DNA of 64,000 nucleotides. It comes from Candidatus Hydrogenedens sp. GTDB taxonomy: Bacteria > Hydrogenedentota > Hydrogenedentia > Hydrogenedentales > Hydrogenedentaceae. The position numbers and the translations under genes were made by a program. The notes beneath the pieces were generated by a model. It was not told where the DNA came from, did no database searches, and saw only the letters and a program-made list of their open reading frames with translations. How positions within the stretch are numbered: position 1 is the stretch's first letter; each line of letters starts with the position of its first letter. Of the stretch, positions 30,879 through 61,389 are shown in pieces. The DNA lies in NCBI GenBank assembly GCA_035361075.1, contig DAOSBX010000016.1, positions 5,917-69,916 of the forward strand. The letters run 5' to 3'.

Positions 30879-32258
30879 TCACTCACCTTTTAATTTCTTT
30901 AATAACGATTCAACAGCCTTCCAAGTTTCACCTTTCTTTTGGAGTTCTTGTTCAACCCGTTCACATGAATGAAGTACCGTTGTATGGTCTTTGCCACCAA
31001 ATAACTCGCCAATATAACTTAAAGACATACTTGGAATGAGCAATCTACATAAATACATCCCAACTTGCCTCGGTAATACATACTGTTTCTTACGACACCT
31101 TCCTTTTAAATCTACTAATCGCACATCAAACGTCTCTGCCACCGCACGAAGAACCGATTCTGGTGTTATACACTGTGTTCTGGTACGGTCTTCTATATCA
31201 CGAACAACTTGTTCTGCTTGTTCTAAAGTAATTCGATCCTTTCCCCGTAATTTCATCAAAGCAATCACACCCGTTAACGCACCTTCCAATTGACGAACAT
31301 TAGAGGTCACCGACCGTGCAATATATTCCAATATTTCGTCCTCTAATTCATACCCCTTCTGAATTAGTTTACTCCTCAAAATTGCAACACGGGTCTCAAA
31401 ATCTGGAGGCTGAATATCCGTAACTAATCCCCACTCAAACCGTGAAACCAATCGACTTTCTACACCTCGAATTTCTTTAGGACTACGGTCTGATGAAAGT
31501 ACAATCTGCTTATGCTGGTCAAACAATTCATTAAATGTATGGAAAAACTCTACCTGCGTCGCCTCCTTCTCCGCTATGAAATGAATATCATCAATAAGCA
31601 ATACATCCACTTTCCGATATTTCCCCCGAAACTTAGACTGGCTTCCCTCAGTAATACTCATAATTAATTCGTTTGTAAATTCTTCCGAAGTAACATACAT
31701 CACTTTCTTTGAGGCGTCCTTCCGTAACAACTGATGTCCAATTCCTTGCATTAAATGTGTTTTACCTAATCCCGTCATTCCATAAATAAAAAGTGGGTTG
31801 TAATTTTTCCCTGGACTCTCTGAAACCGCCTTCGCTGCTGCATAAGCAAACTCATTTCCATGTCCCACTACAAAATTTTCGAAGGTATATCTCGGATTCA
31901 AACGGACAGTGTTATGAGATACATTATCTCTCTTTTCTACTCTCTTCTCTTGAATATCCAAATCCAGCGTCATTCCATCTCTCGGAGGCTGTTTCCTTCT
32001 CTCCTCTGGCCGAACCAAAAAATCAATAGTGATATCTCTTTGTAAAACTTGCCGTGCAACTACACCTAATACCTCTCCATAACGTTCTCGAAACCATGAA
32101 AGGAAAAACTCATTGGGCACCGTAAGAACCAGCCGATTCCCATCAAAGCTCTTAAATGTAACGAAAGAAAACCAGTGCTCACAAACATGAGGTTCCAAAA
32201 CCTTCTCTAAACAACTTAACATCTGCGTCCACAACGTCTCTTCCGTTTGAAAAGCCAT
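30879..32258 (-). CDS. dnaA: Chromosomal replication initiator DnaA
   Basis: AAA+ Walker A GLGKTHLMQGIGH, Walker B LLIDDIHF, and C-terminal DNA-binding domain (YIGELFGGKDHTTVLHSCERVE). Confidence 0.95.
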   Translation of the reverse strand: MAFQTEETLWTQMLSCLEKVLEPHVCEHWFSFVTFKSFDGNRLVLTVPNEFFLSWFRERYGEVLGVVARQVLQRDITIDFLVRPEERRKQPPRDGMTLDLDIQEKRVEKRDNVSHNTVRLNPRYTFENFVVGHGNEFAYAAAKAVSESPGKNYNPLFIYGMTGLGKTHLMQGIGHQLLRKDASKKVMYVTSEEFTNELIMSITEGSQSKFRGKYRKVDVLLIDDIHFIAEKEATQVEFFHTFNELFDQHKQIVLSSDRSPKEIRGVESRLVSRFEWGLVTDIQPPDFETRVAILRSKLIQKGYELEDEILEYIARSVTSNVRQLEGALTGVIALMKLRGKDRITLEQAEQVVRDIEDRTRTQCITPESVLRAVAETFDVRLVDLKGRCRKKQYVLPRQVGMYLCRLLIPSMSLSYIGELFGGKDHTTVLHSCERVEQELQKKGETWKAVESLLKKLKGE

Positions 32259-37249: not shown

Positions 37250-39661
37250 TCAGTTCAATTGTTTTAATAACCACATTTCACAAATCCTTGACTGTTGCCT
37301 CCAATTCTTCCGTAAATCTTCAGGGGGTAGACTCCATCGTATTGTAATTTCCCTATCTGAAACACACTCTTTCGGGACAACATACTCCTTCAATTCTCCC
37401 AATTCTTTCATACCTTCCCCCGAATCAGAAATTTTCTTTCCGTCAATCACAATCTGGGGTTTTCCATATCCTGAAATACGTAATACATACTCCCCATTCG
37501 GTTCTAACCCTTGATACAACACTTCCCCTTTATCTAACGAACTTAACCATGAGGTGCGTTTTCGGCTCTTACCATTATCAAACCACCATAAGGTAGGTTC
37601 AGGCCATGCTTCTTCCGCAGGATTTGTATATGGGGCTTCACAACGTCTCACATGAGGCGATTTTGCAGTATTTCCAATATCATCATAAAAAGAACCATAC
37701 CCTGGTTCTTCCCATGTTCCGAGCTCCTTTAATCGGGTTATTTTTTCATTCTCATTACTTAATTTCTGTATTTCACTAAGCCTATCCTCTAACCACCACC
37801 GATTATTCAACGGTATATCTATATAGTCAAGCGAGGCTCCACGTTCGCCACCACTCGCACCATATTTCTCGACACTGGATTGAAGCCCGATACTATGGAA
37901 TAATTGGTCATACAACATTATCACCTTATCTTTTAAATCCTGTGCGATCGATTCTGTAACACCCCTATTCAGGATCGCTAATACCTCTTGAATAGTATGT
38001 TCTGAGCCTAACTTATTGGAATTGCATAACACTTGATTTGCTTTGTGCTCCAATTCCTGTTCATAAATAAGTTTCCTTCGAATATATGCATCGTAATAAG
38101 CACGAACCAAACACATTTGCCATCGCCAATTTTCTTTAAGTTGAGGTGATTGCTGTTCCAATTCCTGCCATAATTTTAACGTCCCCTCAATGCCACCATT
38201 ATCAACAACACTACCTCGCCAGTTCCTCTCCAGGGCTAAAATTCCATCTGCCGAAGCAACTGCCACATCTGTTGCAAAAAACACATTTGCATACTCAATG
38301 AGAATATCACGAACGTTTTGCTCTGGATCCCAGCTTAATACACTCCAAATTATTTTATTTACATCATCATGAATTCCATCTGAATAAGAAATAAACCCAT
38401 CACAATAAGGTTGAAACCAGTTGTGAATGTATGCATATTGGACAGGCCGAGGATTAATGGCTTCTCTACCCAGGACAGAAGCAAAAGCGATATCCCACCA
38501 AGGTACTGGGTATTGACATAACTTATTATGTGTAATATCAGGATACATTCTGAGTTTATACTCTGCTGGCAAATTCTGTCGCAAATATGCTATTGGTGGA
38601 CTGGAGGGACCTTCACAAAGACCACCAAGCCATTTCGGTTTCTCATCTTTCAGATAGTTAAAAACATACCTCGCTTGCTCAAGAGAAAAGCCTTGAAGGG
38701 ATAACCATATCTTTGCCTCCGGGTGCAATGGCATAAGCCGTTTCGATAACTCCTCCAAAAAGGGTAGAACTAATTCAGGTGGATTATCCCCAGGGTCACC
38801 ACCAGGGAAGAACACACCTGTTAATACAGGACAATCCCGATATAACGCTTCATGCTTACTAATTAAATCTGCCTTTTTGGTCTCATCCCTTAAATCAAAG
38901 TCTGCAGGTGTCCATACCCAATAATCCAAACCATATTTTTTACATATTTGACTTAAACCTTTATTTATCTCATCACGAGAAAGCCGAAAATGTGGAGATG
39001 GTCGGTTATCTTGAAACGGTATATTTTCAATACTATTAACTCCAAAAAACGTTAATTCTCGAATATATTTTTCATATTGGGCTAAATCCCAAGCATCATA
39101 TGAATTCGCCTGTGCTCGATATCCTAATTGATGTCCCCGAATCGGAGAAATTGGAGAGGTCACAATTTGTATTGGTACTGATATACTCAAAAAACCCTGT
39201 GAATATCTTAATATACGAAGCAATTTTCCTACACCATAGAGTAATCCTCTATTATCATTACCTATAATCCAAACATTTTGTGGTTGTTTAGAACTTTCTT
39301 TCGTAAAAATAGCAAATCCTTCCGACCTTAATTGCTGTTCTATCTCATCATAGGAATATCCATTCACATATTGCCTTAACCCCGAATGTTTTAAATAATC
39401 TTTCATTGTAAGAATAATATAATTTCCATTTTTATCAAACGTGTTCTCTCTTTTTAGTTTTATACCTGTTCGCTGGGCTATTTCCTCTATTAACATGGAT
39501 ATTACAATTTCTTGAACCTCATTAACGGGCTCACATGCAAGGTAAACTTTAAACCTACTTATATCCAAAAAATTAGCATTTTCAGCCGAATTAGATGAAA
39601 CATTCAGAATTAAAAAACCAATCAGAAAAATTAACAAACCTCTATTTGTCATATTTAACAA
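37250..39661 (-). CDS. Secreted 803-aa protein of unknown function (possibly glycoside-hydrolase-like)
   Basis: N-terminal signal peptide (LLIFLIGFLILNVSSNSAENA). Large globular protein with no motif I can assign confidently. Confidence 0.45.
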   Translation of the reverse strand: MLNMTNRGLLIFLIGFLILNVSSNSAENANFLDISRFKVYLACEPVNEVQEIVISMLIEEIAQRTGIKLKRENTFDKNGNYIILTMKDYLKHSGLRQYVNGYSYDEIEQQLRSEGFAIFTKESSKQPQNVWIIGNDNRGLLYGVGKLLRILRYSQGFLSISVPIQIVTSPISPIRGHQLGYRAQANSYDAWDLAQYEKYIRELTFFGVNSIENIPFQDNRPSPHFRLSRDEINKGLSQICKKYGLDYWVWTPADFDLRDETKKADLISKHEALYRDCPVLTGVFFPGGDPGDNPPELVLPFLEELSKRLMPLHPEAKIWLSLQGFSLEQARYVFNYLKDEKPKWLGGLCEGPSSPPIAYLRQNLPAEYKLRMYPDITHNKLCQYPVPWWDIAFASVLGREAINPRPVQYAYIHNWFQPYCDGFISYSDGIHDDVNKIIWSVLSWDPEQNVRDILIEYANVFFATDVAVASADGILALERNWRGSVVDNGGIEGTLKLWQELEQQSPQLKENWRWQMCLVRAYYDAYIRRKLIYEQELEHKANQVLCNSNKLGSEHTIQEVLAILNRGVTESIAQDLKDKVIMLYDQLFHSIGLQSSVEKYGASGGERGASLDYIDIPLNNRWWLEDRLSEIQKLSNENEKITRLKELGTWEEPGYGSFYDDIGNTAKSPHVRRCEAPYTNPAEEAWPEPTLWWFDNGKSRKRTSWLSSLDKGEVLYQGLEPNGEYVLRISGYGKPQIVIDGKKISDSGEGMKELGELKEYVVPKECVSDREITIRWSLPPEDLRKNWRQQSRICEMWLLKQLN

Positions 39662-39707
39662 CTCCCTAAATAATACTAAGTTTTATTTATTATCATCTAT
39701 AATTAAA

Positions 39708-39907
39708 CTGTTTTGTCAATCCCTTTTTAAATCCTGTTTTCGGCTTTTCGATATAAAGTATACACCCAACAAAAGTCCCCCTAAGAGTATACAAGGGATA
39801 GAGAATAAATTCACACTTAAACCATAGTGAACATTCAAATAAACCTTTTGTGTCTCAACGACATAAAAATCATCGGATACCTGACACCAATACCAACCAG
39901 AATCTTC
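39708..39907. repeat. Direct repeat copy A (200 bp, 100% identical to 40924-41125): orphan duplicate of the last 64 codons plus stop of the surface-protein gene
   Basis: Base-by-base comparison of the two segments. In copy A an in-frame TAA lies immediately upstream, so it is a non-functional remnant. Confidence 0.9.
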
Positions 39908-40030
39908 ATATTGTAATTACTTAATCCATTTAGATATAAAAGATCGAGAAAACGTCAAAACGCCATGCTATATTACAGAAAATAATTATGCCGTTTCCAG
40001 TTGCCATTGTACGAGATGTACCCAAATTTA

Positions 40031-40065
40031 ATAAAAAAATCGGATCCCATTTAATAGTGGGAGCC
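40031..40065 (-). terminator. Rho-independent terminator of the cassette gene
   Basis: 8-bp stem (one mismatch) GGAUCCCA/UGGGAGCC with 7-nt loop, followed on the minus strand by UUUUUUUAU. Contains a GGATCC site. Confidence 0.5.
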
Positions 40066-40082
40066 CTTTATTCCTAATGTTT

Positions 40083-40598
40083 TCACTCAATGACGCCGAT
40101 TTTTTTTAAGGTCTTAATTCTAGTGGCAATAGAATTACCATCAGACTTATGACCGAGACTAATAATGGGATGGTTTTTATCCATTCCGCAGTAAATCCAA
40201 GGTCCCCATGTACAATTATGTTTCTTAACCTGACAGTCATCTTTAACAAAGTAAGGTAAAGTAAATTCATAAAGATCAAGTGGTTGATCTAGTTGCATAC
40301 AAATAACCTCGTTGTCGTCTAGAAAAATTTTATAATGAGCAATTTTAATTCTAGCTTTTGGCTGTTTAACTGCTTTAATCTGACTGACTGGAATGGGTTT
40401 AGCTATGAACACAAGCTCTGGTCCCCAAACCGGCGGAAGTTCACACGGATTCCTGCCACTGTAACGCAGTTTCACCGTACCTGTCTGCAGTACGGGAAAC
40501 TCTTTGTTAAATAAGCTAACTGTCATTTTACTACTAGTCTGGCAACTTAAATCAAGTGCGACTATTAATATAAAGATAATAGTTATAAAGTACTTCAT
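40083..40598 (-). CDS. Secreted/lipoprotein-like 171-aa hypothetical protein carried on the inserted cassette
   Basis: Signal peptide MKYFITIIFILIVALDLSC. AAAGGA SD 7 nt upstream. Own terminator downstream. No recognisable family. Confidence 0.5.
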   Translation of the reverse strand: MKYFITIIFILIVALDLSCQTSSKMTVSLFNKEFPVLQTGTVKLRYSGRNPCELPPVWGPELVFIAKPIPVSQIKAVKQPKARIKIAHYKIFLDDNEVICMQLDQPLDLYEFTLPYFVKDDCQVKKHNCTWGPWIYCGMDKNHPIISLGHKSDGNSIATRIKTLKKIGVIE

Positions 40599-40739
40599 GA
40601 TTCGTCCTTTCGCGGCGCGGCCGCAGTTTCAGTTGTTTGTTATACTTCAATTTTTACACATATACCTCTACATGTTCAATTACTAAAATGGCTACCGCAT
40701 GCTCTTCCCTACAGGACTACGGTTGGATAATACGGTAAA

Positions 40740-40840
40740 CATAGCCTATCCCATGAAGCTCCGTAGGAGCGAAATTATGGTAGATTATGATTCCATCAAG
40801 CATAGCCTATCCCATGAAGCTCCGTAGGAGCGAAATTATG
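40740..40840. repeat. Two tandem 40-bp direct repeats (CATAGCCTATCCCATGAAGCTCCGTAGGAGCGAAATTATG) separated by 21 bp, each with an internal GCTCC-GTA-GGAGC hairpin; related TCCCTAC(A/G)GGA motifs flank them
   Basis: Copies at 40740-40779 and 40801-40840 are identical. They lie upstream of the cassette gene, between it and repeat copy B. Confidence 0.8.
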
Positions 40841-40923
40841 ATAACAGGCCATCCCTACGGGATTATTATATGGTTGGTGGCAATAATATCTACTTACGGT
40901 GCGGTGATGGCTAACATATAGCT

Positions 40924-41125
40924 ACTGTTTTGTCAATCCCTTTTTAAATCCTGTTTTCGGCTTTTCGATATAAAGTATACACCCAACAAAAGTCCCCCTA
41001 AGAGTATACAAGGGATAGAGAATAAATTCACACTTAAACCATAGTGAACATTCAAATAAACCTTTTGTGTCTCAACGACATAAAAATCATCGGATACCTG
41101 ACACCAATACCAACCAGAATCTTCC
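40924..41125. repeat. Direct repeat copy B (200 bp), the functional 3' end of the surface-protein gene
   Basis: Identical to 39708-39907. Confidence 0.9.
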
Positions 41126-43521
41126 ACCTCTACATGTTCAATTACTAAAGACTGAGATGCAATATCATGGAATATTACAGGAGACGAACAATTGAACTCC
41201 TTACAATAATACCATTGATAATTGATAAGTCCATGTGCATCCTTTATCTGAACTGAAAAGACACAATCTTCCCCTACAACCTTGTTTATATAATCCCCTT
41301 CCTCAATCCATGCGGAAAGCATAGGTTCTCCTTCATTACAACCTTCCCCTTCAACATTCCCTTCTTGTCCCTCAGTATTTCCCTCATGATAACCTTCCAT
41401 TGACCCTTCTCCCTCATCAACTCCTTCTTGAAAGCCTTCTATAAGACCTTCCCCTTCGACAATCCCTTCCATTACCCCTTCTATCACTCCTTCTGATGTG
41501 CCTTCCATGGTCCCCTCTGAAAATCCCTCCACCATTCCTTCTAAATAACCTTCAACGACACCTTCTCCTTCAACAGTTCCTTCTTGAGAACCTTCTACCA
41601 ACCCTTCCCCCTCAACAAGACCTTCTCCTTCAATGACCCCTTCCGAAACCCCTTCCGTTATACCTTCTCCCTCATTTATACCTTCACTTATTAAAATAAA
41701 ATATGCTGTATAATCTCTACTCTCCGTTACATTTAATTCACTTCTATTGGATGTTAATACTCCATCGGACCAATGGTCAAAAATATAACCTGAATCAGGA
41801 ACTGCTACAACCTCTGTTCCATTATCACCCCGCATTATAATTTGCGTTTCATCTCCAGAAATACTACCCCCTATCCCTGTAAAATAATGAATTGTATATG
41901 AGGGTGGTTTTTTGAGTTTGCCTATTTTATAACTCTCTATTCCACCAACAGTATAAAAATTTCCGCCCACATATAAATTTTCAGAAGAATCAACTGCTAA
42001 ACCTTTTATATAATGAGAACCTCCACTTACTCCAGAGGTTATACTACGCCAATCACTGTCATACCACCATGCCAACGAATTCGATGGGATACTCCCTCCT
42101 GCAAAGGTAAAATCTCCACCCACGAAAATAGAACCCTCTGATGGGGTAACAATTGAATATACAATCCCGTTGATACCTCCATTTAAAGGTTCCCAGATGG
42201 AACCATCCCAGACTGCGATTTTACCAGCACTTACACCCCCTGCAATTGTAAAATTACCACCTGCATAAACTTTACCTGCTGAGCTTACCGCTAAAGCATT
42301 TACAGGTCCATTCACGCCACTACCCATTGCATGCCAATTAGTCCCGTCCCAATAAGCTATGTTAGATACAGAAAGGCTCCCTGCACTTTGAAACTCCCCT
42401 CCAACATATACATTCCCATTAGAATCTGTAGCAAGAGCAGTTACACTCGGGTTGCTACCTCCACTTACTCCAAAGTAAGGCTCACTCCAAACTGACCCAT
42501 TCCAAAAAGCAATTCGACTAAAATACATAACTGGTGACCCTCCTGATTGTGTAAACTTACCACCTGCAAACAACCTACCATCACTCGTTACTGCAACCGC
42601 ATAAACAACATCGTTAAACCCATTTCCAAGAGTCGTCCAATTTGAACCTGTCCACTTTGCAATACGGTTAAAGTATGTCGTCCCAGAACGAGTAAACGAC
42701 CCACCTGCATAAATAACTCCACCCTGACCTAAAACCATCTTTTCTACCGCACCATCGTCAAATCCATTCCCCATTTGTTGCCATTGAGTTCCATTCCATT
42801 TTGCCACTCTCTTTGCAGGAATATTATTAATCGATGTAAAACTACCTCCACAATAAATGTTACCATTGGTATCAGCCACAATTGATGTTACAACTCCATC
42901 AGTCCAGTTGGAACTCAAAGATTCCCAATCTCCATCCAAGTAAGTAGGGTCGACATACAATGGATAACAAGCTTCATTGTCCTCAATTTCAATACTCACC
43001 ATACCAGCATCATCATTCATAACGAACTTAGCAGGAAGTTTACGCCCAAACACATCAAAGACATAAAGCCTTGAGTACATAGTATTTTTACAATTAAGAA
43101 TAGCCACTGTTCCAGAATTGGTTTCTACTTTCTGATTTAACGTTAACAAGTTTAACCTAAGAGGTCCCTCTCCATAAATTCTTTCATAAATAACAAAATC
43201 TTGACGAATCCCGTCCATTGTAGAAAACACAAATTCGCTTATGCCGAAATACTTTCTGACGAAAAAATGACCATTGACATTATTTATGTCTCTACATTGA
43301 AATTTAAATTCGGCATTGGCACGGGATAAGGAAAAAGGCAAAAAAACATCAAATTGCCTATCTAATTTGCCTTTATAAAATTCTTCACTACCTGCAAACA
43401 AACAAAAATTAAAAAAGAGAGCAAAAAGTAAGAACGGCAGATATATTATCCTATTAACATATAAGAAATAAAACATCTCCTTCCTTCCTCTTATATTAAT
43501 TTTTATTTCGCTTAAAAACAT
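40933..43521 (-). CDS. Large cell-surface protein: signal peptide, beta-propeller-like repeats, (X-X-E-G)n tetrapeptide repeat, Ig-like domain, C-terminal TM anchor
   Basis: 862 aa in the track. Likely true start is MFYFLYVNRIIYLPFLLFALF at 43476 (GGAAGGAAGGAG upstream). Contains repeated G(G/N)xFTxAGG-type units, about 125 aa of xxEG repeats, YQWYYC...WYWCQV Ig-like region, and a C-terminal hydrophobic anchor plus KSRKQDLKRD. Confidence 0.6.
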   Translation of the reverse strand: MFLSEIKINIRGRKEMFYFLYVNRIIYLPFLLFALFFNFCLFAGSEEFYKGKLDRQFDVFLPFSLSRANAEFKFQCRDINNVNGHFFVRKYFGISEFVFSTMDGIRQDFVIYERIYGEGPLRLNLLTLNQKVETNSGTVAILNCKNTMYSRLYVFDVFGRKLPAKFVMNDDAGMVSIEIEDNEACYPLYVDPTYLDGDWESLSSNWTDGVVTSIVADTNGNIYCGGSFTSINNIPAKRVAKWNGTQWQQMGNGFDDGAVEKMVLGQGGVIYAGGSFTRSGTTYFNRIAKWTGSNWTTLGNGFNDVVYAVAVTSDGRLFAGGKFTQSGGSPVMYFSRIAFWNGSVWSEPYFGVSGGSNPSVTALATDSNGNVYVGGEFQSAGSLSVSNIAYWDGTNWHAMGSGVNGPVNALAVSSAGKVYAGGNFTIAGGVSAGKIAVWDGSIWEPLNGGINGIVYSIVTPSEGSIFVGGDFTFAGGSIPSNSLAWWYDSDWRSITSGVSGGSHYIKGLAVDSSENLYVGGNFYTVGGIESYKIGKLKKPPSYTIHYFTGIGGSISGDETQIIMRGDNGTEVVAVPDSGYIFDHWSDGVLTSNRSELNVTESRDYTAYFILISEGINEGEGITEGVSEGVIEGEGLVEGEGLVEGSQEGTVEGEGVVEGYLEGMVEGFSEGTMEGTSEGVIEGVMEGIVEGEGLIEGFQEGVDEGEGSMEGYHEGNTEGQEGNVEGEGCNEGEPMLSAWIEEGDYINKVVGEDCVFSVQIKDAHGLINYQWYYCKEFNCSSPVIFHDIASQSLVIEHVEVEDSGWYWCQVSDDFYVVETQKVYLNVHYGLSVNLFSIPCILLGGLLLGVYFISKSRKQDLKRD
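41320..41700. repeat. 12-bp-periodic coding tandem repeat (GAAGG-rich on the coding strand) encoding about 30 X-X-E-G units
   Basis: Visible nnnCCTTCnnnn periodicity on the plus strand. Protein segment GINEGEGITEGVSEGVIEGEGLVEG...NVEGEGCNEGE. Confidence 0.8.
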
Positions 43522-49400: not shown

Positions 49401-50882
49401 CTATTGTAAAACAACACCTGCTTCAGGATTTTGCCACAAGTGATTCTTTAATTCACCTAATTGTTTAGAAAGAAGAACTCGATATACTTCGGGATTCCGA
49501 AGTCGTTTATATTCCTCAGGGAGTGCTTGCATTTGCTTTCTAACTCTCTCCCTAATAACATGAACAGAATCCAGCGGTATAATAATCTCGCCGTCTCGGA
49601 ATACCTCCTTCAATAACGGTTCAGCATAATATATTCCTTCTATCTTCTGTCCAATATGTGGAAAAAGTCTTGACCGTGCATCTACTGTTCCACCCTTCGG
49701 ATAATCTTCTCCTTCCAAATACATAACATCGCCTAGTAAATACCCATCCTCATTATAATACCTAACAGGAACTTTTCTTCCAGGGTCTGTACTTTTTTCA
49801 ATATTCCCTGTTATTTTTATCCGAGACTCCCATGCTCCTTCCCTTAAAACAGCCACAAGTTTATACACACCATTTAAAGCTGGACAATCATAAGAAGTAA
49901 TTAAATGGGTTCCTACACCCCACGCATTAATCCTCGCCCCCTGTCTCCTTAAATCCGCTATCAAATCCTCATTAAGGTCATTTGAACCTATAATAGTAGG
50001 ATTTTCAAAACCCGCTTCCAACATCATTTTATATGCAACCTTGCTTATCCTCGCTAAATCACCCGAATCAATTCGAATAGCAGGCTTTACATCGAACCCT
50101 TGTTCACGTAATTCTTTAAACACCTGTATTGCGTTAGGAATACCACTTTTTATCGGGTCATACGTATCGACCAATAGCACACACCTTTGCGGATAGAGAC
50201 GGGCAAAAGCACGAAATGCCTCCAACTCTGATTGATAACTCATCACCCAACTATGTGCATGAGTACCCGTTACTGGAATGCCATATATCTTCCCTGCCAT
50301 TACATTTGAACTCGCAACACATCCCCCAATATACGCAGAACGCGAAGCAATCGTACCCCCATCCGGTCCATGTGCCCTACGCAGTCCAAACTCAATCACT
50401 GGATCAGGCTCCGCTGACAAACAAACACGGGCAGATTTGCTCGCGATTAGTGTTTGATAATTCAAAAAATTTAAAAGGGCTGTTTCCACCAATTGTGCTT
50501 CTAATAACGGTCCTTCTACTTGAACAATAGGCTCAAATGGAAAAACAAGCGTTCCCTCCGGAACGGATGTTATCTTTAAGTGCACCCTAAACTCTTTTAA
50601 AAATGCCAAAAAATCTTCATCAAACAATTTAAGGCTTCGTAAGTAATCTATATCATCTTTCGTAAACTTCAAATTTTTTAAATATAGTAAAAACGATTCT
50701 AAACCCGTAAAAATAGCAAAACCCGAATGAGGTGGCAAACTACGGAAAAAGTAATCAAATGTCACCGGAATTTGCCCCCGACCTTCTTTAAAATATCCTG
50801 CCATCATTGTTAATTGATACAAATCCGTTAACAATGCAAGATTCTTTCTCTCAAACCACGGTGCAATATCGAATGTGTCCAT
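49401..50882 (-). CDS. pncB: Nicotinate phosphoribosyltransferase
   Basis: LTDLYQLTMMAGYFKEGR N-terminal signature; 493 aa. Confidence 0.9.
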   Translation of the reverse strand: MDTFDIAPWFERKNLALLTDLYQLTMMAGYFKEGRGQIPVTFDYFFRSLPPHSGFAIFTGLESFLLYLKNLKFTKDDIDYLRSLKLFDEDFLAFLKEFRVHLKITSVPEGTLVFPFEPIVQVEGPLLEAQLVETALLNFLNYQTLIASKSARVCLSAEPDPVIEFGLRRAHGPDGGTIASRSAYIGGCVASSNVMAGKIYGIPVTGTHAHSWVMSYQSELEAFRAFARLYPQRCVLLVDTYDPIKSGIPNAIQVFKELREQGFDVKPAIRIDSGDLARISKVAYKMMLEAGFENPTIIGSNDLNEDLIADLRRQGARINAWGVGTHLITSYDCPALNGVYKLVAVLREGAWESRIKITGNIEKSTDPGRKVPVRYYNEDGYLLGDVMYLEGEDYPKGGTVDARSRLFPHIGQKIEGIYYAEPLLKEVFRDGEIIIPLDSVHVIRERVRKQMQALPEEYKRLRNPEVYRVLLSKQLGELKNHLWQNPEAGVVLQ

Positions 50883-50918
50883 ATATCTATTCTTCCACTT
50901 AATAATAAACCAAAATCG

Positions 50919-51386
50919 CTATTTCCTCTCAGATAGAACCTCTTTCTGTAACCATTCTTCAGCACAATCAATAATCTCGGCATGGTCAAACGCCAAATCT
51001 GGAAGTTCATCCAATACAAACCAATTAACATCTCCTGCATCATCTGACGGACGCACAGCCATATCTGTTTTTCCGAGTACCCCTACAAATGCAATACTTA
51101 TCGTTCTACCTCTTGGGTCTCGTCTTGGATTACTAAATGCCTTTAGTTGTGATAACTTCACTCCTTTCAAACCTGTCTCTTCAAAAAGTTCTCTCTCAAC
51201 AGCCTGTTCTAACGTCTCTTCCTCGTCCACAAAACCCCCAGGCAACGCCCAATAACCTTCAAAAGGAGAATTAACACGTTTAACTAATAATACTTCCCAA
51301 TCCGTATCTCGTTTTCGAAACACTACTGCGTCCACAGTTACCGCAGGTCTTGGATATTCATAGATAAAATGTCCTTTATGTTTCAT
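50919..51386 (-). CDS. NUDIX hydrolase (probably ADP-ribose pyrophosphatase)
   Basis: NUDIX box GGFVDEEETLEQAVERELFEETGL. Start MKHKGH at 51386 follows an AAGGAG SD. Confidence 0.8.
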   Translation of the reverse strand: MKHKGHFIYEYPRPAVTVDAVVFRKRDTDWEVLLVKRVNSPFEGYWALPGGFVDEEETLEQAVERELFEETGLKGVKLSQLKAFSNPRRDPRGRTISIAFVGVLGKTDMAVRPSDDAGDVNWFVLDELPDLAFDHAEIIDCAEEWLQKEVLSERK

Positions 51387-51489
51387 ACATATCTCCTTTT
51401 CATAAAAGGTTAACACTTATGATATACTATTTCACAACTTCGGAAAATAACCTCTATATAATCATTATAAACCTTCAAAGGAATTTCCA

Positions 51490-52830
51490 ATGAACTATCC
51501 TTCTATCATCAAAAAAACTATTAAATGGACTTTATATAGTATATCAATCATTATAGTCCTTATTTTAATTGGATTTTTATACCTCTTTCGAACTGCTATT
51601 CATCATAGGTTTATAGATTTCCCACGTGAAAAGAAAGCATGGGAAGAATTGCGGAAACAATATCAACAACCTGTATATGACGACGGTTGGAATGATTACG
51701 CTGGTGTCTGTCATAGCCATTCCGAACTGTCGCATGACAGTATGGTTCCATTCCCTGAAATATTATCAGCGTTAAAACAAGAACACCGACAATTTATCTG
51801 TTTATCTGACCACTGTGATAACGGCAAAGCTGATTATTCAAAGCAATGGCGAGGTGAACATGATGGCGTCATCTTTATCCCTGGTTTTGAAATGAATTAT
51901 GGATTCATGCCCTGGGGACTTCCTCCTGATACTGTACTTGACTGCAAAAAAGATCCAGAATCACTTGCCAAAGAAATTAATGAAAAAGGAGGTTTACTTT
52001 TCTTCGCTCATTCCGAAGAACCACGTGAATGGAATCTTCCCCAACTAAACGGAATGGAAATTTACAACATACATACAAACTTCAAAAGTCTTGATAAAAA
52101 ATTCTTAATATATCAACTCGTACCCGATATCATTCTAAATCTCAACAAATATCATGAACAATTGCTACGAAGCATTTTTAGTCCCCTTACCGAAGTGATT
52201 CAACGGTGGGATGAAATGAACATTAGTCGGAAAATTGTAGGAATTTCAGCAAACGATTGCCATCAAAACACAGGTTTTGTTGGAAAAATAACTCCTCAAG
52301 GAACTCTATATATAGAAGACACAAGCCCTCACAAAATAGGCGAATATAAATTAAATTTCTTCTCTCGTCTCCTATTACGTATGCTCTTCGGAAAATTGGA
52401 ACCAGGCAAAACTTTATTCCATATTCAATTAGATCCGTACCCAACAATGGTTCGATATGTTGCTACTCATATCTTAGCAAAAGAATTGTCAGAACAATCT
52501 ATCCTTGAAGCACTAAAAGAAGGTAGAGTGTTTGTTGGCTTTGATATGCTTGTTGACACCAAAGGTTTTGTGTTCTTTGCTGAGGATAACAACATGAAAG
52601 CGGTATTTGGTGAAACATTACCTTTAACATCAAACACAATCTTAAAAATGGCGTCACCAGTACCTTGCAAATTTATCATCTATCGGCATGGTGTTCCCGT
52701 TCAAGAACATGAAGGCAGAGATTTTTCCTGGCAACCTACAGAAAAAGGAAAATATCGTGTCGAAGCACAACTTAAAATAAACGACAAATGGGTCCCATGG
52801 GTATATACAAACCCTATAGAACTAAACTAA
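51490..52830 (+). CDS. PHP-domain protein (metal-dependent phosphoesterase-like), N-terminal TM
   Basis: GVCHSHSELSHDS PHP motif. N-terminal TM helix. Confidence 0.5.
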   Translation: MNYPSIIKKTIKWTLYSISIIIVLILIGFLYLFRTAIHHRFIDFPREKKAWEELRKQYQQPVYDDGWNDYAGVCHSHSELSHDSMVPFPEILSALKQEHRQFICLSDHCDNGKADYSKQWRGEHDGVIFIPGFEMNYGFMPWGLPPDTVLDCKKDPESLAKEINEKGGLLFFAHSEEPREWNLPQLNGMEIYNIHTNFKSLDKKFLIYQLVPDIILNLNKYHEQLLRSIFSPLTEVIQRWDEMNISRKIVGISANDCHQNTGFVGKITPQGTLYIEDTSPHKIGEYKLNFFSRLLLRMLFGKLEPGKTLFHIQLDPYPTMVRYVATHILAKELSEQSILEALKEGRVFVGFDMLVDTKGFVFFAEDNNMKAVFGETLPLTSNTILKMASPVPCKFIIYRHGVPVQEHEGRDFSWQPTEKGKYRVEAQLKINDKWVPWVYTNPIELN

Positions 52831-52848
52831 ATATCTCATAAAAATATT

Positions 52849-52877
52849 AAGCCCATCTTTAACTAAAAGATGGGCTT
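52849..52877. terminator. Bidirectional rho-independent terminator between convergent genes
   Basis: Perfect 12-bp stem AAGCCCATCTTT/AAAGATGGGCTT with a 5-nt loop, flanked by a T-run on the plus strand and an A-run upstream (T-run on the minus strand). Confidence 0.65.
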
Positions 52878-52904
52878 AATGTTTTTTCAACCAAACAGAC
52901 AATC

Positions 52905-53621
52905 TTACAATGCCAATCCTTTCAAAGCCTCAAGATTTTTTTGTACTTGACTCCAATTCACAACATTCCACCAAGCCTTCACATATTCAGCACGGTTATT
53001 TTGGTACTTCAAATAATAGGCATGCTCCCAAACATCAATTCCTAAAATAGGAAATGTGCCCCATGATGTCAGTTTATGCTGATTCTCTGCTTGAAGAACA
53101 ATAAGTCGTCCATCCGCAGGTCGATAATGTAACAACGCCCATCCACCACCTTCTACCGCATTCGCCGCAGAAGAAAATTGATTCTGAAAGGCATCATATG
53201 AACCAAAATCACGCTCAATCAATTCCAGAAGTTCACCAGAAGGTTTTCCACCTCCACCATTTCCCGGCGAAGCCATAACCTTCCAGAACATACTGTGAAG
53301 AAAATGTCCACCTCCATGGAACGCTGCCTGCTTAGACCAATGTTGAATCAATGTAAAATCATTCTTTGCCCTTGCCTCCTCAAGAGCCTTTTCTGCTGTA
53401 TTTAGCCCCTTAACATACCCCGCATGATGTTTTGAATGGTGCAATTCCATTGTCCTCGCATCAATATACGGCTCCAATGCATCATATGCATACGGTAATT
53501 CTGGAAGTTTATGCTCTCGACTCCCGTTCCCTGTCTGAGCAAATACTGGGGCTCCAATAATCGAACTGGCAGTTATTATTGAACTGCTTGCTAACAAAAA
53601 TTCTCTACGTGAAGTACTCAT
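52905..53621 (-). CDS. sod: Fe/Mn superoxide dismutase with Tat signal peptide
   Basis: SRREFLL twin-arginine signal, HHSKHH and DVWEHAYY metal-ligand motifs. Start at 53621 follows a GGAGA SD. Confidence 0.9.
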   Translation of the reverse strand: MSTSRREFLLASSSIITASSIIGAPVFAQTGNGSREHKLPELPYAYDALEPYIDARTMELHHSKHHAGYVKGLNTAEKALEEARAKNDFTLIQHWSKQAAFHGGGHFLHSMFWKVMASPGNGGGGKPSGELLELIERDFGSYDAFQNQFSSAANAVEGGGWALLHYRPADGRLIVLQAENQHKLTSWGTFPILGIDVWEHAYYLKYQNNRAEYVKAWWNVVNWSQVQKNLEALKGLAL

Positions 53622-58915: not shown

Positions 58916-61363
58916 GTGGAGCAAATGAAAGAAAATTCTAATCACGCTTATACTGCAGATGCCATTGGTGTACTTGAAGGACTTGAAGCCGTCCGAAAAC
59001 GCCCTGCAATGTATATAGGTGATACTGGAGTCCGTGGTCTACATCATCTTGTATACGAAGTTGTTGACAATAGTGTCGACGAAGTCATGGCAGGTTACGG
59101 AGATACAATACATGTTACTATACATATAGACAATAGTGTAACAGTTATAGATAATGGCAGAGGGATTCCTGTCGACCCAATGAAAGAAGGGTCACACAAA
59201 GGGAAATCTGCCCTTGAAGTGGTTATGACCGTTCTCCATGCAGGTGGCAAATTTAACCATAGCGTTTACAAAGTTTCTGGGGGACTGCATGGTGTAGGTG
59301 TTTCATGTGTTAATGCGTTATCTAAATGGTTAGAAGTTGAGGTAAAAAGAGACGACAAAATTTATTACATGGCTTTTGAACGGGGCAAAACCATTACTCC
59401 TTTAGAAGTACGTGGCAAAGCAAAAGGAACAGGAACACGAGTCACTTTCTTACCAGACCCAGACATCTTCGAAGAGGTAGTCTTCCAATCCGAAATACTA
59501 ATAAATCGTCTAAGAGAACTCGCATTCTTAAACGCGGGGCTTAAAATTATCTTTACTGACGAACGAACCGAAGAAGCACCTATCACCCTTCAATATAAAG
59601 GCGGATTGGAAGAATTTGTCAAACACTTAAACAAAGGCAAAGAACCTATCCATAACAAACCTATTTTCATCTCAAAAAGTAAAGATGACATCCAAGTTGA
59701 AGTTGCTATTCAGTATGTAAAAACCTACTATGAACAAGTGATTAGTTTCGCAAACAATATTCACACGCCAGGTGGAGGAACTCATATCACAGGTTTCCGT
59801 AGTGGATTAACCCGAAGCATTACAGACTGGATAGAAAAAAACAACCTGAATAAAAAAAAGAACTTTTCTGTCTCTGGTGATGACACCCGCGAAGGATTAA
59901 CTGCTGTCGTTTCAATTCGACATCCCAACCCTCAATTTGAAGGACAAACAAAAGATAAATTAGGAAACAGCGAAGTTCAAGGATTAGTAAACTCCATCGT
60001 ATACAGCGCTCTTCAAGAATATTTTGAACAAAATCCACGCGTCGCAAATCAAATAGCAGATAAAGTATTAGAAGCCGCAGAAGCACGTGAAGAATCACGA
60101 AAAGCCAAAGAACGAGTCCGTAGAAAGTCAGCCCTTGATATATTGGGACAGGCTTCCAAATTAGCAGATTGTTCTGAACGAAACCCAGAACTTTGTGAAT
60201 TATTCATCGTCGAAGGTGATAGTGCAGGTGGTTCTGCTAAACAAGGTAGAGATAGAAGGTATCAGGCTATCCTTCCACTCCGTGGTAAAGTCCTTAACGT
60301 CGAAAAAAGCAGACTACACAAAGTCCTCGAAAATAGAGAATATGCATCGTTGCTCAGAGCCTTAGGTATCGATATAACAAAAGAAGAACTATCTCTCGAT
60401 GATTTGCGATACCACCGTATTATTATCATGACCGATGCTGATGTAGATGGTTCTCATATAAGAACATTACTATTAACCTTCTTTTTCCGTTATACCCCAG
60501 AGCTAATCCGCAAAGGACATCTTTATATCGCATTACCTCCTCTTTACCGCATTACACGAAATAAAAAATCACGTTACACCCATTCCGAACATGAGTTCGA
60601 AGCATTCATTCTTGAAACGGTAATGGAAAATGTCCGCGTCGTTGCAAGCAATGGCGAAAGTAGTAATGATGAAAAACAGATTCAGGTTCGTACGCTTATC
60701 AAAACAATTGAAGCCATACGAAACCTCGAAAAGGTCATTAATCGATTAAATAAAATCTACGGAGTAACAATAGAAGACCTCAAGAAAATTAGAGAACTCC
60801 CCCGTGAAAAAATTATCTACCCCGAAGCAATTACACAAAAAGAATGGAAACGTATCTTTGGTGAAGAAAAAGAACTTATCAACACCTCCATCACACCAAA
60901 AAATGATAACGGTGACACAGATTCAACACCTCCCGTAAAAATAACCCGATTACCAAACCAAGTAGACATTGCTTTCATGAAAAGTCCCGATTTCTCTTCC
61001 TATCTTCATTGGTATGAATCAGCAAATGCCCTTGGAAACCCACCATTCCGAATTTTCAGCAAAGATAACAAAGAAAACAATTTGTTATTCGAAACAGATT
61101 CACCAATGGAACTGAGAAATTTCCTAATGGAATTAGGGAAAAAAGACCTCGTAATACAACGATACAAAGGACTGGGTGAAATGAATGCAGAACAACTCTA
61201 CGAAACAACAATGGACCCAGAAAAAAGGACCCTGCTAAAAGTTGAAATTGCCGATGAAACTTCCGTAGAGCAAATATTTACCGTATTAATGGGTGACGAA
61301 GTTGAGCCACGTCGACAATTCATAGAAAAACATGCACTCGAAGTACAAAACCTTGATATTTAA
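58916..61363 (+). CDS. gyrB: DNA gyrase subunit B
   Basis: GHKL ATPase (LHHLVYEVVDNSVDE, GLHGVGVSCVNALS), Toprim (EGDSAGG, DADVDGSHI) and C-terminal domain. Track start 58916 is GTG; ATG at 58925 (MKENS) follows GGTGGAG. Confidence 0.95.
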   Translation: MEQMKENSNHAYTADAIGVLEGLEAVRKRPAMYIGDTGVRGLHHLVYEVVDNSVDEVMAGYGDTIHVTIHIDNSVTVIDNGRGIPVDPMKEGSHKGKSALEVVMTVLHAGGKFNHSVYKVSGGLHGVGVSCVNALSKWLEVEVKRDDKIYYMAFERGKTITPLEVRGKAKGTGTRVTFLPDPDIFEEVVFQSEILINRLRELAFLNAGLKIIFTDERTEEAPITLQYKGGLEEFVKHLNKGKEPIHNKPIFISKSKDDIQVEVAIQYVKTYYEQVISFANNIHTPGGGTHITGFRSGLTRSITDWIEKNNLNKKKNFSVSGDDTREGLTAVVSIRHPNPQFEGQTKDKLGNSEVQGLVNSIVYSALQEYFEQNPRVANQIADKVLEAAEAREESRKAKERVRRKSALDILGQASKLADCSERNPELCELFIVEGDSAGGSAKQGRDRRYQAILPLRGKVLNVEKSRLHKVLENREYASLLRALGIDITKEELSLDDLRYHRIIIMTDADVDGSHIRTLLLTFFFRYTPELIRKGHLYIALPPLYRITRNKKSRYTHSEHEFEAFILETVMENVRVVASNGESSNDEKQIQVRTLIKTIEAIRNLEKVINRLNKIYGVTIEDLKKIRELPREKIIYPEAITQKEWKRIFGEEKELINTSITPKNDNGDTDSTPPVKITRLPNQVDIAFMKSPDFSSYLHWYESANALGNPPFRIFSKDNKENNLLFETDSPMELRNFLMELGKKDLVIQRYKGLGEMNAEQLYETTMDPEKRTLLKVEIADETSVEQIFTVLMGDEVEPRRQFIEKHALEVQNLDI

Positions 61364-61389
61364 AAGAACCTAAACCATAAAAAAACTTT

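What the first reader, a model, noticed from the sequence alone, without database searches (positions are those of the whole stretch)
39708..41125. 1-kb cassette with an orphan secreted-protein gene, flanked by 200-bp perfect direct repeats duplicating the 3' end of a surface-protein gene
Segments 39708-39907 and 40924-41125 are identical over 200 bp and correspond to the last 64 codons plus stop of the 862-aa surface-protein gene. Copy A is preceded by an in-frame stop, so it is a dead remnant; copy B is the live gene end. A 23-bp fragment (CCTCTACATGTTCAATTACTAAA) of the sequence that natively follows the repeat is also duplicated inside the cassette at 40665-40687. Between the repeats lie: a 171-aa signal-peptide protein gene with its own SD and rho-independent terminator; a 14-nt GC-only motif CGCGGCGCGGCCGC (very atypical for this AT-rich genome) 13 bp upstream of its start; two tandem 40-bp direct repeats each holding a GCTCC-GTA-GGAGC hairpin and flanked by related TCCCTAC(A/G)GGA half-sites; and a 35-aa hydrophobic ORF on the plus strand (MKLRRSEIMITGHPYGIIIWLVAIISTYGAVMANI, 40814-40921). 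Insertion at the 3' end of a gene with restoration of that gene end is the classic signature of a site-specific integrative element. No integrase is present, so this could be a cis-mobilisable remnant, a small satellite-like element, or a recombination-generated cassette. The repeat array with nested palindromes looks like recombinase or regulator binding sites, or a structured RNA.
Basis: seen in the sequence. Interest (0 to 1): 0.7.

Follow-up and report, generated by a model that had tools for sequence, protein, structure and literature searches.

The report
Patchwork gene relocation with duplicated gene end
A small secreted-protein gene was cut out of its old neighbourhood and pasted behind a surface-protein gene in an uncultured Hydrogenedentota bacterium, together with a cluster of REP-like hairpin repeats and a duplicated gene end: a real but ordinary scar of illegitimate recombination, not a mobile element.

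Summary
A perfect 201-bp direct repeat (39707-39907 and 40924-41124) and a 24-bp repeat flank a 171-aa gene, and at least 10 independent metagenome assemblies reproduce the arrangement. Four related lineages have an empty site, where the surface-protein gene runs straight into the glycoside-hydrolase (GH) gene 48-89 bp downstream. So the 1,217 bp are a lineage-specific insertion.

It is not a discrete integrative element. It has four parts:
- A 226-bp duplication of the gene's 3' end (24 bp + 1 nt + 201 bp), with the distal copy split.
- The splitting segment V (756 bp). It is homologous end to end with another chromosomal locus in a relative. It carries the 171-aa gene, its conserved 5'-UTR GC hairpin, its terminator and the last 40 codons of its former convergent neighbour.
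- A 236-bp cluster of REP-like hairpin repeats. This family occurs in many phyla and brackets IS200-like Y1 transposase genes.
- No integrase, transposase or reverse transcriptase anywhere in the 64-kb window.

The best reading is gene relocation by illegitimate recombination (template switching), followed by gene conversion between the two 201-bp copies; two haplotypes exist. The 171-aa gene is under purifying selection (dN/dS 0.15), but its function remains unknown. Interest is low to moderate.

The parts
40933..43521 (-). 862-aa surface-protein gene: beta-propeller repeats, InlB B-repeat, (x-E-G)n linker, Ig-like domain and C-terminal TM anchor. It is intact.
   Evidence: Pfam matches to Rax2, Reg_prop, DUF5122, Flg_new_2 and Ig_3. 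All orthologues keep the same C-terminal Ig + TM tail (alignment A1).
41126..41149 (-). 'a1': the native 24 bp of coding sequence just upstream of the 201-bp repeat (encodes LVIEHVEV).
   Evidence: Exact 24-nt repeat with 40664-40687.
40924..41124 (-). R_B: the live 201-bp gene end (63 codons + stop + 9 nt).
   Evidence: 100% identical to 39707-39907. In haplotype H2 (L001, L003, L004, L012, L014) it differs from R_A at 41062, 41023, 41020 and 41019: three synonymous changes plus S835P.
40688..40923 (.). U: a 236-bp cluster of REP-like hairpin repeats. Two forward units lie at 40737-40782 and 40798-40843, one inverted hairpin ATCCC-TAC-GGGAT at 40851-40863, and a degenerate one at 40706-40716. 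GC is about 43% against about 34% nearby.
   Evidence: No similarity elsewhere in the window or in related loci. The 20-mer GAAGCTCCGTAGGAGCGAAA has 73 exact hits in 69 stretches from many phyla. The only 3 hairpins of this type in the 64 kb are all here; 0.02 are expected. Folding is not significant and there is no Rfam hit. Composition.
40664..40687 (-). 'a2': the second copy of the 24-mer, joined on one side to U and on the other to V. It is the proximal piece of the split distal copy of the 226-bp duplication.
   Evidence: Its last 8 nt lie where the -10 box sits in the L009 promoter (alignment).
39908..40663 (-). V: a 756-bp segment relocated from another chromosomal locus.
   Evidence: blastn matches window 40662-40006 and 39989-39910 to L009 9927-10583 and 10642-10721 (72-82% identity). 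The match covers the whole of V and stops within 2 nt of both junctions (sequence).
40605..40629 (-). Conserved 5'-UTR element AAACTGCGGCCGCGCCGCGAAAGGA: a 6-bp GC hairpin 3 nt before the Shine-Dalgarno sequence.
   Evidence: Identical (25/25) in L009 although synonymous sites are saturated (dS about 1.4). Hairpin fold.
40083..40598 (-). 171-aa gene: N-terminal hydrophobic signal with a conserved Cys19, four conserved Cys residues, orphan family.
   Evidence: No Pfam, NCBIfam, PHROG, PADLOC or PDB match. Homologues are only P0002 (67%), P0139 (43%) and an ORF in L096 (40%). dN/dS is 0.15 against L009. Intact in all 12 contigs that carry it. The AF2 model is unusable, pLDDT 38.
40045..40062 (-). 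Intrinsic terminator, bidirectional in the donor context.
   Evidence: Terminator-like on both strands. It lies at the same position as the L009 terminator GGCTCCTAC-TATTG-GTAGGAGCC.
39909..40031 (+). Dead stub: the last 40 codons plus stop of the gene's former convergent neighbour, a Cys-rich 791-aa protein in L009.
   Evidence: BLASTP of the 40-aa translation against residues 738-790 of the L009 protein gives E = 1e-13, with CNYLIHLD identical. The same convergent gene pair is present in L096.
39707..39907 (-). R_A: the dead 201-bp copy. It is followed by the native intergenic sequence and the GH gene.
   Evidence: It is identical in every strain. The region before the GH start codon resembles the L015 empty site (GGAGTT(A/G)TT(G/A)AA.ATG).
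37250..39652 (-). 800-aa glycoside-hydrolase-like gene, the native downstream neighbour of the surface-protein gene.
   Evidence: 67% identical to the L015 gene that directly follows the orthologous surface-protein gene.

Best explanation
The 1,217 bp between the surface-protein gene and the glycoside-hydrolase (GH) gene are a lineage-specific patchwork insertion made by illegitimate (non-site-specific) recombination. They are not a discrete mobile element.

Reading in the gene's direction, the layout is X - a - G - R_B - U - a - V - R_A - D. X is the gene body, a the 24-mer, G a single nucleotide, R the 201-bp repeat, and D the native downstream sequence.

Shown:
1. The ancestral state is X-a-G-R-D, with the GH gene 48-89 bp after the stop codon.
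2. The 24-mer and the 201-mer are two pieces of one 226-bp duplication of the gene's 3' end. The proximal copy is continuous and keeps the gene intact. The distal copy is split between a and R.
3. What splits it is V, a 756-bp piece of a different chromosomal locus. It was cut inside that locus's promoter on one side and 40 codons inside the convergent neighbour gene on the other. V brought the 171-aa gene with its 5'-UTR hairpin and terminator.
4. The two copies are separated by U, a cluster of REP-like hairpin repeats of a cross-phylum family linked to Y1 transposases.

Inferred:
- All pieces were joined at one stalled fork or break by serial template switching (MMBIR/FoSTeS-like). The nascent end copied G-R, then U, then the nearby 24 nt, then V, and then re-annealed at R.
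- A short templated filler taken from 226 nt upstream is typical of this kind of repair.
- Hairpin-rich REP DNA is a plausible trigger for stalling.

Afterwards:
- The dead copy R_A overwrote a 4-difference patch of the live R_B in one haplotype (gene conversion).
- The 171-aa gene stayed under purifying selection. That would explain why RecA-mediated deletion between the 201-bp repeats has not removed the cassette.
- V did not bring its old -35/-10 promoter. The gene is therefore presumably transcribed by read-through from the surface-protein gene or from a new promoter in U or at the a|V joint.
For: Empty sites:
- L015/L016: 824-aa gene, 89 bp, then a 791-aa GH 67% identical to the window's GH.
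- L097: 55 bp gap.
- L017: 49 bp gap.
- L018-20: 48 bp gap.
- Orthologues read continuously through a-G-R (A1).

Origin of V:
- V is homologous to L009 9927-10721 over its whole length, and the match stops at both junctions.
- The stub of the neighbour gene matches at E = 1e-13.
- The convergent pair (171-aa homologue facing the Cys-rich gene) is conserved in two relatives, L009 and L096. That context is therefore ancestral and the window context is derived.
- L009 has a consensus promoter, TTGACA-18-TATAAT, just upstream of the point where the homology begins.

Nature of U:
- 73 exact hits of a 20-mer across phyla, against about 1 expected.
- In a tail-anchored test, 35 of 48 instances have a perfect 5-bp stem with at least 8 covarying stem variants; the control gives 0 of 48.
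- The hairpins bracket Y1_Tnp genes.

No mobility genes: no integrase, transposase or reverse transcriptase in the 64 kb.

Gene conversion:
- In the 11 kb around the cassette, the only SNPs between haplotypes are 4 within 44 nt of R_B.
- R_A is invariant.

Selection: dN/dS is 0.15, and the gene is intact in all contigs.
Against: - No intermediate state was found, so one step versus several steps cannot be decided. The state would be U without V, V without U, or a same-species empty site.
- The source of U is unknown.
- The donor locus of V in this species could not be retrieved. No orthologue of the Cys-rich gene was found for it. 'Copied' and 'moved' therefore cannot be separated, and junction microhomology cannot be scored. 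L009 is only 72% identical; the a|V joint shows a weak 8/11 resemblance.
- Four switches in one event is complex, and such events are poorly documented in bacteria.
- The 4-SNP patch could in principle be an imported tract, because homologous import does occur in this population (21 clustered SNPs in L007).
Confidence: 0.6

Rival explanations
1. Stepwise origin. First came a simple 226-bp tandem duplication of the gene end (a-G-R twice). Then two independent neutral insertions hit the dead part: the REP-like cluster at the join point, and V between a and R of the distal copy.
For: - The a...R geometry is exactly that of a 226-bp duplication.
- U has 7-nt direct repeats (ATGGCTA) at 40688-40694 and 40908-40914 that could be a target duplication of a later insertion.
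- REP clusters are known to accumulate at the 3' ends of genes (PMC3733652).
- Small tandem duplications are common in bacteria (general knowledge).
Against: - It needs three independent rare events inside 226 bp.
- A bare 226-bp tandem duplication is unstable and gives no benefit.
- Y1-type elements make no target duplications.
- No intermediate was seen in 17 contigs of the species.
Confidence: 0.2
2. Remnant of a site-specific integrative element (CIME-like or satellite-like). It would insert into the 3' end of the surface-protein gene, with the 201-bp repeats acting as attL/attR, and be mobilised in trans by an integrase encoded elsewhere.
For: - Direct repeats that duplicate a gene's 3' end and keep the gene intact are the usual footprint of such elements.
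- Empty sites exist in relatives.
Against: - The interior is not element-like. V is a chromosomal segment with a truncated neighbour gene and a truncated promoter.
- The 24-mer shows the duplication is 226 bp, interrupted, rather than an att core.
- Homologues of the cargo gene lie in non-mobile context without any of the flanking features.
- No integrase in 64 kb.
- No viral or satellite relatives.
- The arrangement is fixed in all sampled strains.
Confidence: 0.06
3. Gene capture and relocation driven by the REP-like repeats and a Y1 (HUH) transposase acting in trans. V would have been carried as a passenger next to the hairpin cluster, by analogy with one-ended or composite single-strand transposition.
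For: - U belongs to a hairpin family that brackets Y1 transposase genes in REPtron-like fashion.
- U sits directly upstream of the relocated segment.
- U is GC-richer than its surroundings.
- It is the only place in the window with such hairpins.
Against: - Hairpins lie on one side of V only.
- A 24-bp piece of target sequence separates U from V.
- No Y1 gene is present in the window or in the related loci.
- The donor context in L009 has no such hairpins.
- HUH peel-and-paste transposition does not produce 200-bp target duplications (established knowledge of IS200/IS605).
Confidence: 0.06
4. Assembly artefact (a collapsed or chimeric repeat), or a diversity-generating retroelement with a template/variable repeat pair.
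For: - A 100% identical 201-bp repeat in a metagenome assembly can arise from mis-joins.
- The repeat covers the C-terminus of a surface protein, as variable repeats do.
Against: - Independent assemblers and samples give the same joins. Haplotype H2 has two distinguishable copies traversed in single contigs.
- No reverse transcriptase is present.
- The 4 differences are G>A, A>G, C>T and T>C, not adenine-specific.
- The repeat covers Ig strands and a TM anchor, not a C-type lectin fold.
Confidence: 0.01

Closest known systems
Complex templated insertions and duplications from replication- or repair-associated template switching (FoSTeS/MMBIR-type events; illegitimate recombination in bacteria)
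   Same: - A patchwork of segments from nearby (24 nt, 201 nt) and distant (V, U) templates, joined without long homology.
- A duplication of the sequence next to the breakpoint.
- The host gene is preserved.
   Different: - The mechanism is inferred from anatomy only.
- Donor sequences in the same genome are not available, so junction microhomology, the defining signature, could not be scored.
REP/BIME clusters and REPtrons (RAYT or Y1 HUH transposase systems)
   Same: - U is built from short GC-rich hairpins with a conserved flanking tail ending in (G/A)TAG, in direct and inverted orientation.
- It is extragenic and lies at the 3' end of a gene.
- The family is multi-copy in many genomes and brackets Y1 transposase genes.
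   Different: - The stem is only 5 bp, and the GTAG lies 9 nt 3' of the hairpin rather than 0-2 nt 5' of it.
- The associated Y1 proteins match NCBIfam IS200 and fall below the cut-off for REP_Tyr_transpos.
- They carry the Y---Q--HH signature of subclass 1.2, for which no REPs were reported (PMC6006769).
- In this window the family is not dispersed; it occurs only in U.
Integrative elements that restore the 3' end of their target gene (tRNA- or gene-end-targeting islands, CIMEs)
   Same: Direct repeats duplicating a gene's 3' end, an intact target gene, and empty sites in relatives.
   Different: - No recombinase.
- The cargo is a cut-out chromosomal segment with truncated flanks.
- The repeat is an interrupted 226-bp duplication.
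- Nothing indicates that the unit occurs anywhere else.
Pseudogene- or silent-copy-templated gene conversion of surface-protein genes (pilS/pilE-type)
   Same: A dead partial copy next to a live surface-protein gene appears to have donated a sequence patch, changing P835 to S in one haplotype.
   Different: A single silent copy with 4 differences in the anchor region. There is no repertoire, no recombination signal and no evidence of programmed variation.

Membership tests
Site-specific integrative element / CIME | A tyrosine or serine recombinase in the element, or att sites shared with an autonomous element that could act in trans | tested here: not met
   No integrase or recombinase domain in any ORF of at least 120 aa in the 64-kb window. 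No related unit in viral contigs. The rest of the genome could not be searched.
Site-specific integrative element / CIME | The same bounded unit recurs (other genomes or sites) with the same ends | tested here: not met
   The cargo gene's homologues (L009-L011, L096) lie between uvrA and a convergent Cys-rich gene, with no 201-mer, 24-mer or hairpin cluster.
Site-specific integrative element / CIME | Empty target site in relatives | tested here: met
   Four related lineages have the surface-protein gene followed after 48-89 bp by the GH gene. No empty allele was found within the species. The metagenome scan was uninformative because its positive control failed.
REP / BIME (REPtron) repeats - for segment U only | Short palindromic hairpin with a conserved flanking tetranucleotide, multi-copy, with the stem maintained by compensatory changes | tested here: met
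   73 exact 20-mer hits. 35 of 48 tail-anchored instances have perfect 5-bp stems with at least 8 stem variants, against 0 of 48 in the control. Unit 1 in U has GTAG at the family's spacing.
REP / BIME (REPtron) repeats - for segment U only | Association with a Y1 (RAYT-type) transposase gene flanked by inverted repeats | tested here: inconclusive
   - In other phyla, 8 of 69 loci carry a Y1_Tnp gene (Pfam E = 3e-26 and 3e-29), and 6 of those 8 are bracketed by inverted hairpins.
- The proteins score below the NCBIfam REP_Tyr_transpos cut-off (34 against 80 bits).
- No Y1 gene was found in this window or in related Hydrogenedentota loci.
REP / BIME (REPtron) repeats - for segment U only | Dispersed in many copies in the host genome | tested here: not met
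   Only 3 hairpins in 64 kb, all inside U, and none in 75 kb of related loci. No Hydrogenedentota record is among the 69 genome hits. The complete genome could not be searched.
Diversity-generating retroelement | Reverse transcriptase plus a template/variable repeat pair differing at adenines | tested here: not met
   No reverse transcriptase. The differences between copies are G>A, A>G, C>T and T>C.
Template-switch (MMBIR/FoSTeS-type) rearrangement | Microhomology at each junction between the templates | not testable with these tools
   The donor sequences for U and V in this genome are not available. The nearest donor-like locus (L009) is only 72% identical.

The most novel reading that the evidence does not exclude
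The hairpin cluster is not a bystander. A trans-acting Y1 (HUH) transposase of the little-studied subclass 1.2 would use these REP-like hairpins to capture and relocate adjacent chromosomal genes, and the long duplication would be a by-product of replication-coupled single-strand insertion. That would make this a first footprint of REP-mediated gene shuffling.

A second, weaker novel reading: the dead 201-bp copy serves as a silent donor for gene conversion of the surface protein's anchor region.
Probability: 0.06. Interest if true: 0.65.

Novelty: new member of a known kind. Interest (0 to 1): 0.27.

Why it matters
It is a clean, well-bounded natural example of how a bacterial gene changes neighbourhood. 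The before state (empty site and donor context in relatives) and the after state can both be read, and the breakpoints are resolved to within about 2 nt. The example also shows a partial gene duplicate being used afterwards in gene conversion.

It is a caution for genome scans. 'Direct repeats that restore a gene end' need not mean an integrative element.

The side observation may be of more general interest than the cassette itself. A REP-like hairpin family shared by many phyla brackets subclass 1.2 Y1 transposase genes.

None of this opens a long-standing question, and the 171-aa protein remains of unknown function.

Tried and rejected
Structured RNA
- Rfam over the whole window at gathering threshold, and over 39600-41200 at E <= 1, found only a tRNA-Val far away.
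- Folding U on either strand gave z-scores of -1.6 and -0.75. A structured-RNA reading is therefore rejected.
- Rfam over 12 REP-rich loci found no family.

The 171-aa protein
- Pfam, NCBIfam, PHROGs, PADLOC and PDB searches found nothing.
- The AlphaFold2 model from a 2-sequence alignment has pLDDT 38 and is unusable, so no fold search was run.
- An exhaustive HMMER search of 1.84 billion representatives added only one homologue, P0139.

Same-species empty allele or intermediates
- Two metagenome-contig scans for a same-species empty-site allele and for the 24-mer both returned 0.
- The 24-mer is known to be in JGI contigs L003, L004 and L012. That collection evidently lacks these samples, so the negative result says nothing.
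- An exact-protein look-up of the GH gene found 17 contigs. All carry the cassette or break inside R_A.

Donor locus in this species
- The search with the L009 Cys-rich protein found only a more distant relative, P0124/L096.

Hybrid promoter at the a|V joint
- TTGAAC-17-TAAAAA fails the consensus scan, so it is kept only as a possibility.

Is long flanking duplication a general property of the REP-like family?
- No. Only a few unrelated repeats turned up in the 69 loci.

Other readings considered and rejected
- Type III toxin-antitoxin (tandem RNA repeats followed by a 171-aa toxin). The homologue in L009 has no repeats, the protein has a signal peptide, and the repeats belong to a cross-phylum DNA repeat family.
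- Integron cassette. There is no intI and no attC-like site.
- Engineered construct, suggested by the NotI-like GCGGCCGC. The motif is conserved in a natural relative.
Full report
**1. The observation**

- The repeat finder gives a perfect 201-nt direct repeat at 39707-39907 (R_A) and 40924-41124 (R_B).
- An exact 24-nt repeat ('a') lies at 40664-40687 and 41126-41149.
- A 46-nt tandem pair lies at 40737-40782 and 40798-40843, 40 nt of it exact, with a 61-nt period.
- Shuffled controls give no chance matches for the 40-mer, the GCTCCGTAGGAGC hairpin or TCCCTACRGGA.
- R holds the last 63 codons, the stop codon and 9 further nt of the 862-aa gene at 40933-43521 on the minus strand.
- That gene encodes a beta-propeller / InlB-B-repeat / Ig-like protein with a C-terminal membrane anchor.

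In the direction of the gene the layout is X - a - G - R_B - U(236 bp) - a - V(756 bp) - R_A - D. D is the sequence leading into an 800-aa glycoside-hydrolase-like (GH) gene.

**2. It is real, not an assembly artefact**

- Exact-protein look-ups recover the same arrangement in contigs from at least ten independent samples and three assemblers.
- Several short contigs end inside a repeat copy, as expected for a 201-bp repeat.
- Contigs L001, L003, L004, L012 and L014 traverse both copies. In those contigs R_B differs from R_A at four positions (41062, 41023, 41020, 41019).

**3. It is an insertion**

- The organism belongs to the Hydrogenedentota. One orthologue is labelled Candidatus Hydrogenedens.
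- The orthologous surface-protein gene was found in four related lineages. In each it is followed directly by the orthologous GH gene:
  - L015/L016, 89 bp gap. Its GH is 67% identical to the window's GH.
  - L097, 55 bp gap.
  - L017, 49 bp gap.
  - L018-L020, 48 bp gap.
- All orthologues read continuously through the a-G-R segment and keep the Ig + anchor tail (alignment A1).
- X-a-G-R-D is therefore ancestral, and the 1,217 bp are derived.
- Within the species no empty allele was seen among 17 contigs.
- Two metagenome scans returned nothing. A positive control failed too, so those scans are uninformative.

**4. What the insert is made of: V**

- The 171-aa protein has only three detectable relatives anywhere. 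The closest is P0002, 67% identical.
- P0002 lies in a different place, after uvrA and convergent with a 791-aa Cys-rich protein gene (L009-L011). A more distant relative, L096, has the same convergent pair.
- blastn shows that V as a whole (window 40662-39910) is homologous to L009 9927-10721. The match stops within 2 nt of the a|V and V|R_A joints.
- V starts at the last base of the -10 box of L009's consensus promoter, TTGACA-18-TATAAT.
- V then runs through the 5' UTR, the gene and the terminator, and ends 40 codons inside the convergent neighbour.
- The dead stub of that neighbour (window + strand 39909-40031) matches the C-terminus of the L009 protein at E = 1e-13.
- V is therefore a piece cut out of an ordinary chromosomal locus, with both ends falling in the middle of functional units. 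That is not how a mobile element ends.

**5. The GC-only motif**

- It is identical in L009 although synonymous sites between the two genes are saturated (dS about 1.4).
- It forms a 6-bp GC hairpin 3 nt before the Shine-Dalgarno sequence.
- It belongs to the gene's own leader.

**6. What the insert is made of: U**

- U has no similarity to anything else in the window or in the related loci.
- It does not fold better than shuffles and matches no Rfam family.
- A 20-mer from its tandem unit has 73 exact matches in 69 stretches of GTDB species representatives. The phyla include Acidobacteriota, Bacteroidota, Verrucomicrobiota, Ignavibacteria, Planctomycetota and Cloacimonadota. About one match is expected by chance. 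Several copies often occur per genome, as inverted pairs or tandem arrays.
- The family consensus is a 5-bp GC-rich stem, a 3-nt loop and the tail GAAAT-N4-(G/A)TAG.
- Anchoring on the tail alone, 35 of 48 instances have a perfect stem, with at least eight compensatory stem variants. The control gives 0 of 48.
- Eight of the 69 loci carry an IS200-like Y1 transposase gene (Pfam Y1_Tnp, E = 3e-26 and 3e-29). In six of the eight, forward hairpins lie 22-31 nt before the start codon and inverted ones 8-66 nt after the stop. This is a REPtron-like arrangement.
- U contains two forward units, one inverted hairpin (ATCCC-TAC-GGGAT, 40851-40863) and a degenerate one. It is a REP/BIME-like cluster.
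- These are the only three such hairpins in the 64-kb window (0.02 expected). Related Hydrogenedentota loci have none.
- U is GC-richer than its surroundings, so its origin may be foreign.
- The 35/44-aa ORF is just an open frame across these repeats.

**7. No mobility genes**

- Every ORF of at least 120 aa in the window was scanned, either here or in the precomputed gene tables.
- The window is a housekeeping region. It holds dnaA, recR, def, dinB-like, nadE, gyrB, gyrA, rnc, ilvD and sodB.
- It has no integrase, transposase or reverse transcriptase.
- The cargo gene and the 24-mer are absent from the viral contig collection.

**8. Mechanism**

- The 24-mer natively lies 1 nt upstream of R. 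The two repeats are therefore the two ends of one 226-bp duplication, whose distal copy was split by V with loss of the single G.
- The simplest description is: a 226-bp duplication of the gene end, a hairpin cluster between the copies, and a relocated chromosomal segment inside the dead copy.
- I consider a single repair or replication event with serial template switches most likely. Short templated filler from a few hundred bp away is typical of such events, and hairpin DNA is a plausible trigger.
- This step is inferred, not shown.
- A stepwise route (tandem duplication, then two insertions) is the main rival.
- Junction microhomology could not be scored because the donor sequences in this genome were not retrievable. 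The a|V joint shows only a weak resemblance to the L009 -10 region.

**9. After the insertion**

- Strains differ from the window by only 4-10 SNPs per 20 kb.
- In the 11 kb around the cassette, the only differences are the four SNPs within 44 nt of R_B. Three are synonymous and one changes S835 to P. R_A is invariant.
- A cluster confined to the duplicated segment is what intrachromosomal gene conversion predicts. In the window haplotype the dead copy has overwritten the live one.
- An imported tract is a less likely alternative, although import does happen in this population (L007, 21 SNPs in 2.5 kb).
- The 171-aa gene has dN/dS 0.15 against L009 and is intact in every contig. It is functional, and selection on it would counter deletion between the 201-bp repeats.
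- V lacks the donor promoter. Transcription is presumably by read-through or from a new promoter; a TAGATA-16-TATAAT site lies in U at 40892-40865.
- The protein's function remains unknown. There are no family, defence, phage or PDB matches, and the AF2 model has pLDDT 38.

**10. Verdict**

- The 'integrative element' reading is not supported.
- The 'recombination-generated cassette' reading is supported.
- It is one more instance of a known kind of event, unusually well resolved.
- The side observation is a cross-phylum REP-like family around Y1 genes. These carry the Y---Q--HH signature of subclass 1.2, which PMC6006769 lists as lacking REPs.

Noticed in passing
L021-L089 (e.g. L071 2229-2714, L044 6086-6544, L079, L031, L081, L082); window 40737-40863: A hairpin+tail repeat family occurs in many phyla: a 5-bp stem, a 3-nt loop and GAAAT-N4-(G/A)TAG. 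It brackets Y1 transposase genes in REPtron fashion. These Y1 proteins carry the Y---Q--HH motif of subclass 1.2, for which PMC6006769 reports no associated REPs. No Rfam family covers it.
   Followed up: partly
window 40605-40629 (minus strand); L009 9972-9996: A 25-nt 5'-UTR element, AAACTGCGGCCGCGCCGCGAAAGGA, is perfectly conserved between two genes whose synonymous sites are saturated. It forms a 6-bp GC hairpin 3 nt before the Shine-Dalgarno sequence. It is likely a leader element for mRNA stability or translation.
   Followed up: partly
window 50607-53107 versus L007: 21 of the 23 SNPs between this strain and the ERZ795060 contig cluster in 2.5 kb (the NAPRTase-to-SOD region). This looks like an imported homologous-recombination tract.
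   Followed up: no
window 42457-42475 (and 42019-42037): This is an assembly-unstable spot inside the surface-protein gene. L004 has an 11-nt deletion (42463-42473) that splits the gene into 336 + 518 aa. L005 has Ns there, and the L006 and L014 contigs start at 42465/6. It lies next to a 19-nt internal repeat.
   Followed up: no
window 40688-40694 and 40908-40914: U is bounded by a 7-nt direct repeat, ATGGCTA, with CCGCA/TGCGG just inside. This could be a target duplication of a separate insertion, or chance.
   Followed up: no
window 41330-41690: A long (x-E-G)n low-complexity linker in the surface protein varies in length between orthologues (alignment A1 columns 650-800). It is the source of most short direct repeats reported in the region.
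   Followed up: no
window 30879-32258 (dnaA), 58916-63930 (gyrB, gyrA): The cassette lies about 8.7 kb from dnaA, in a housekeeping region probably close to the origin. GC skew stays negative across 36-45 kb.
   Followed up: no
The DNA search scope metagenome contigs: A 24-mer known to be present in JGI contigs fetched by the look-up of encoding contigs (L003, L004, L012) returned zero hits. Negative results from that collection should therefore not be read as absence.
   Followed up: yes
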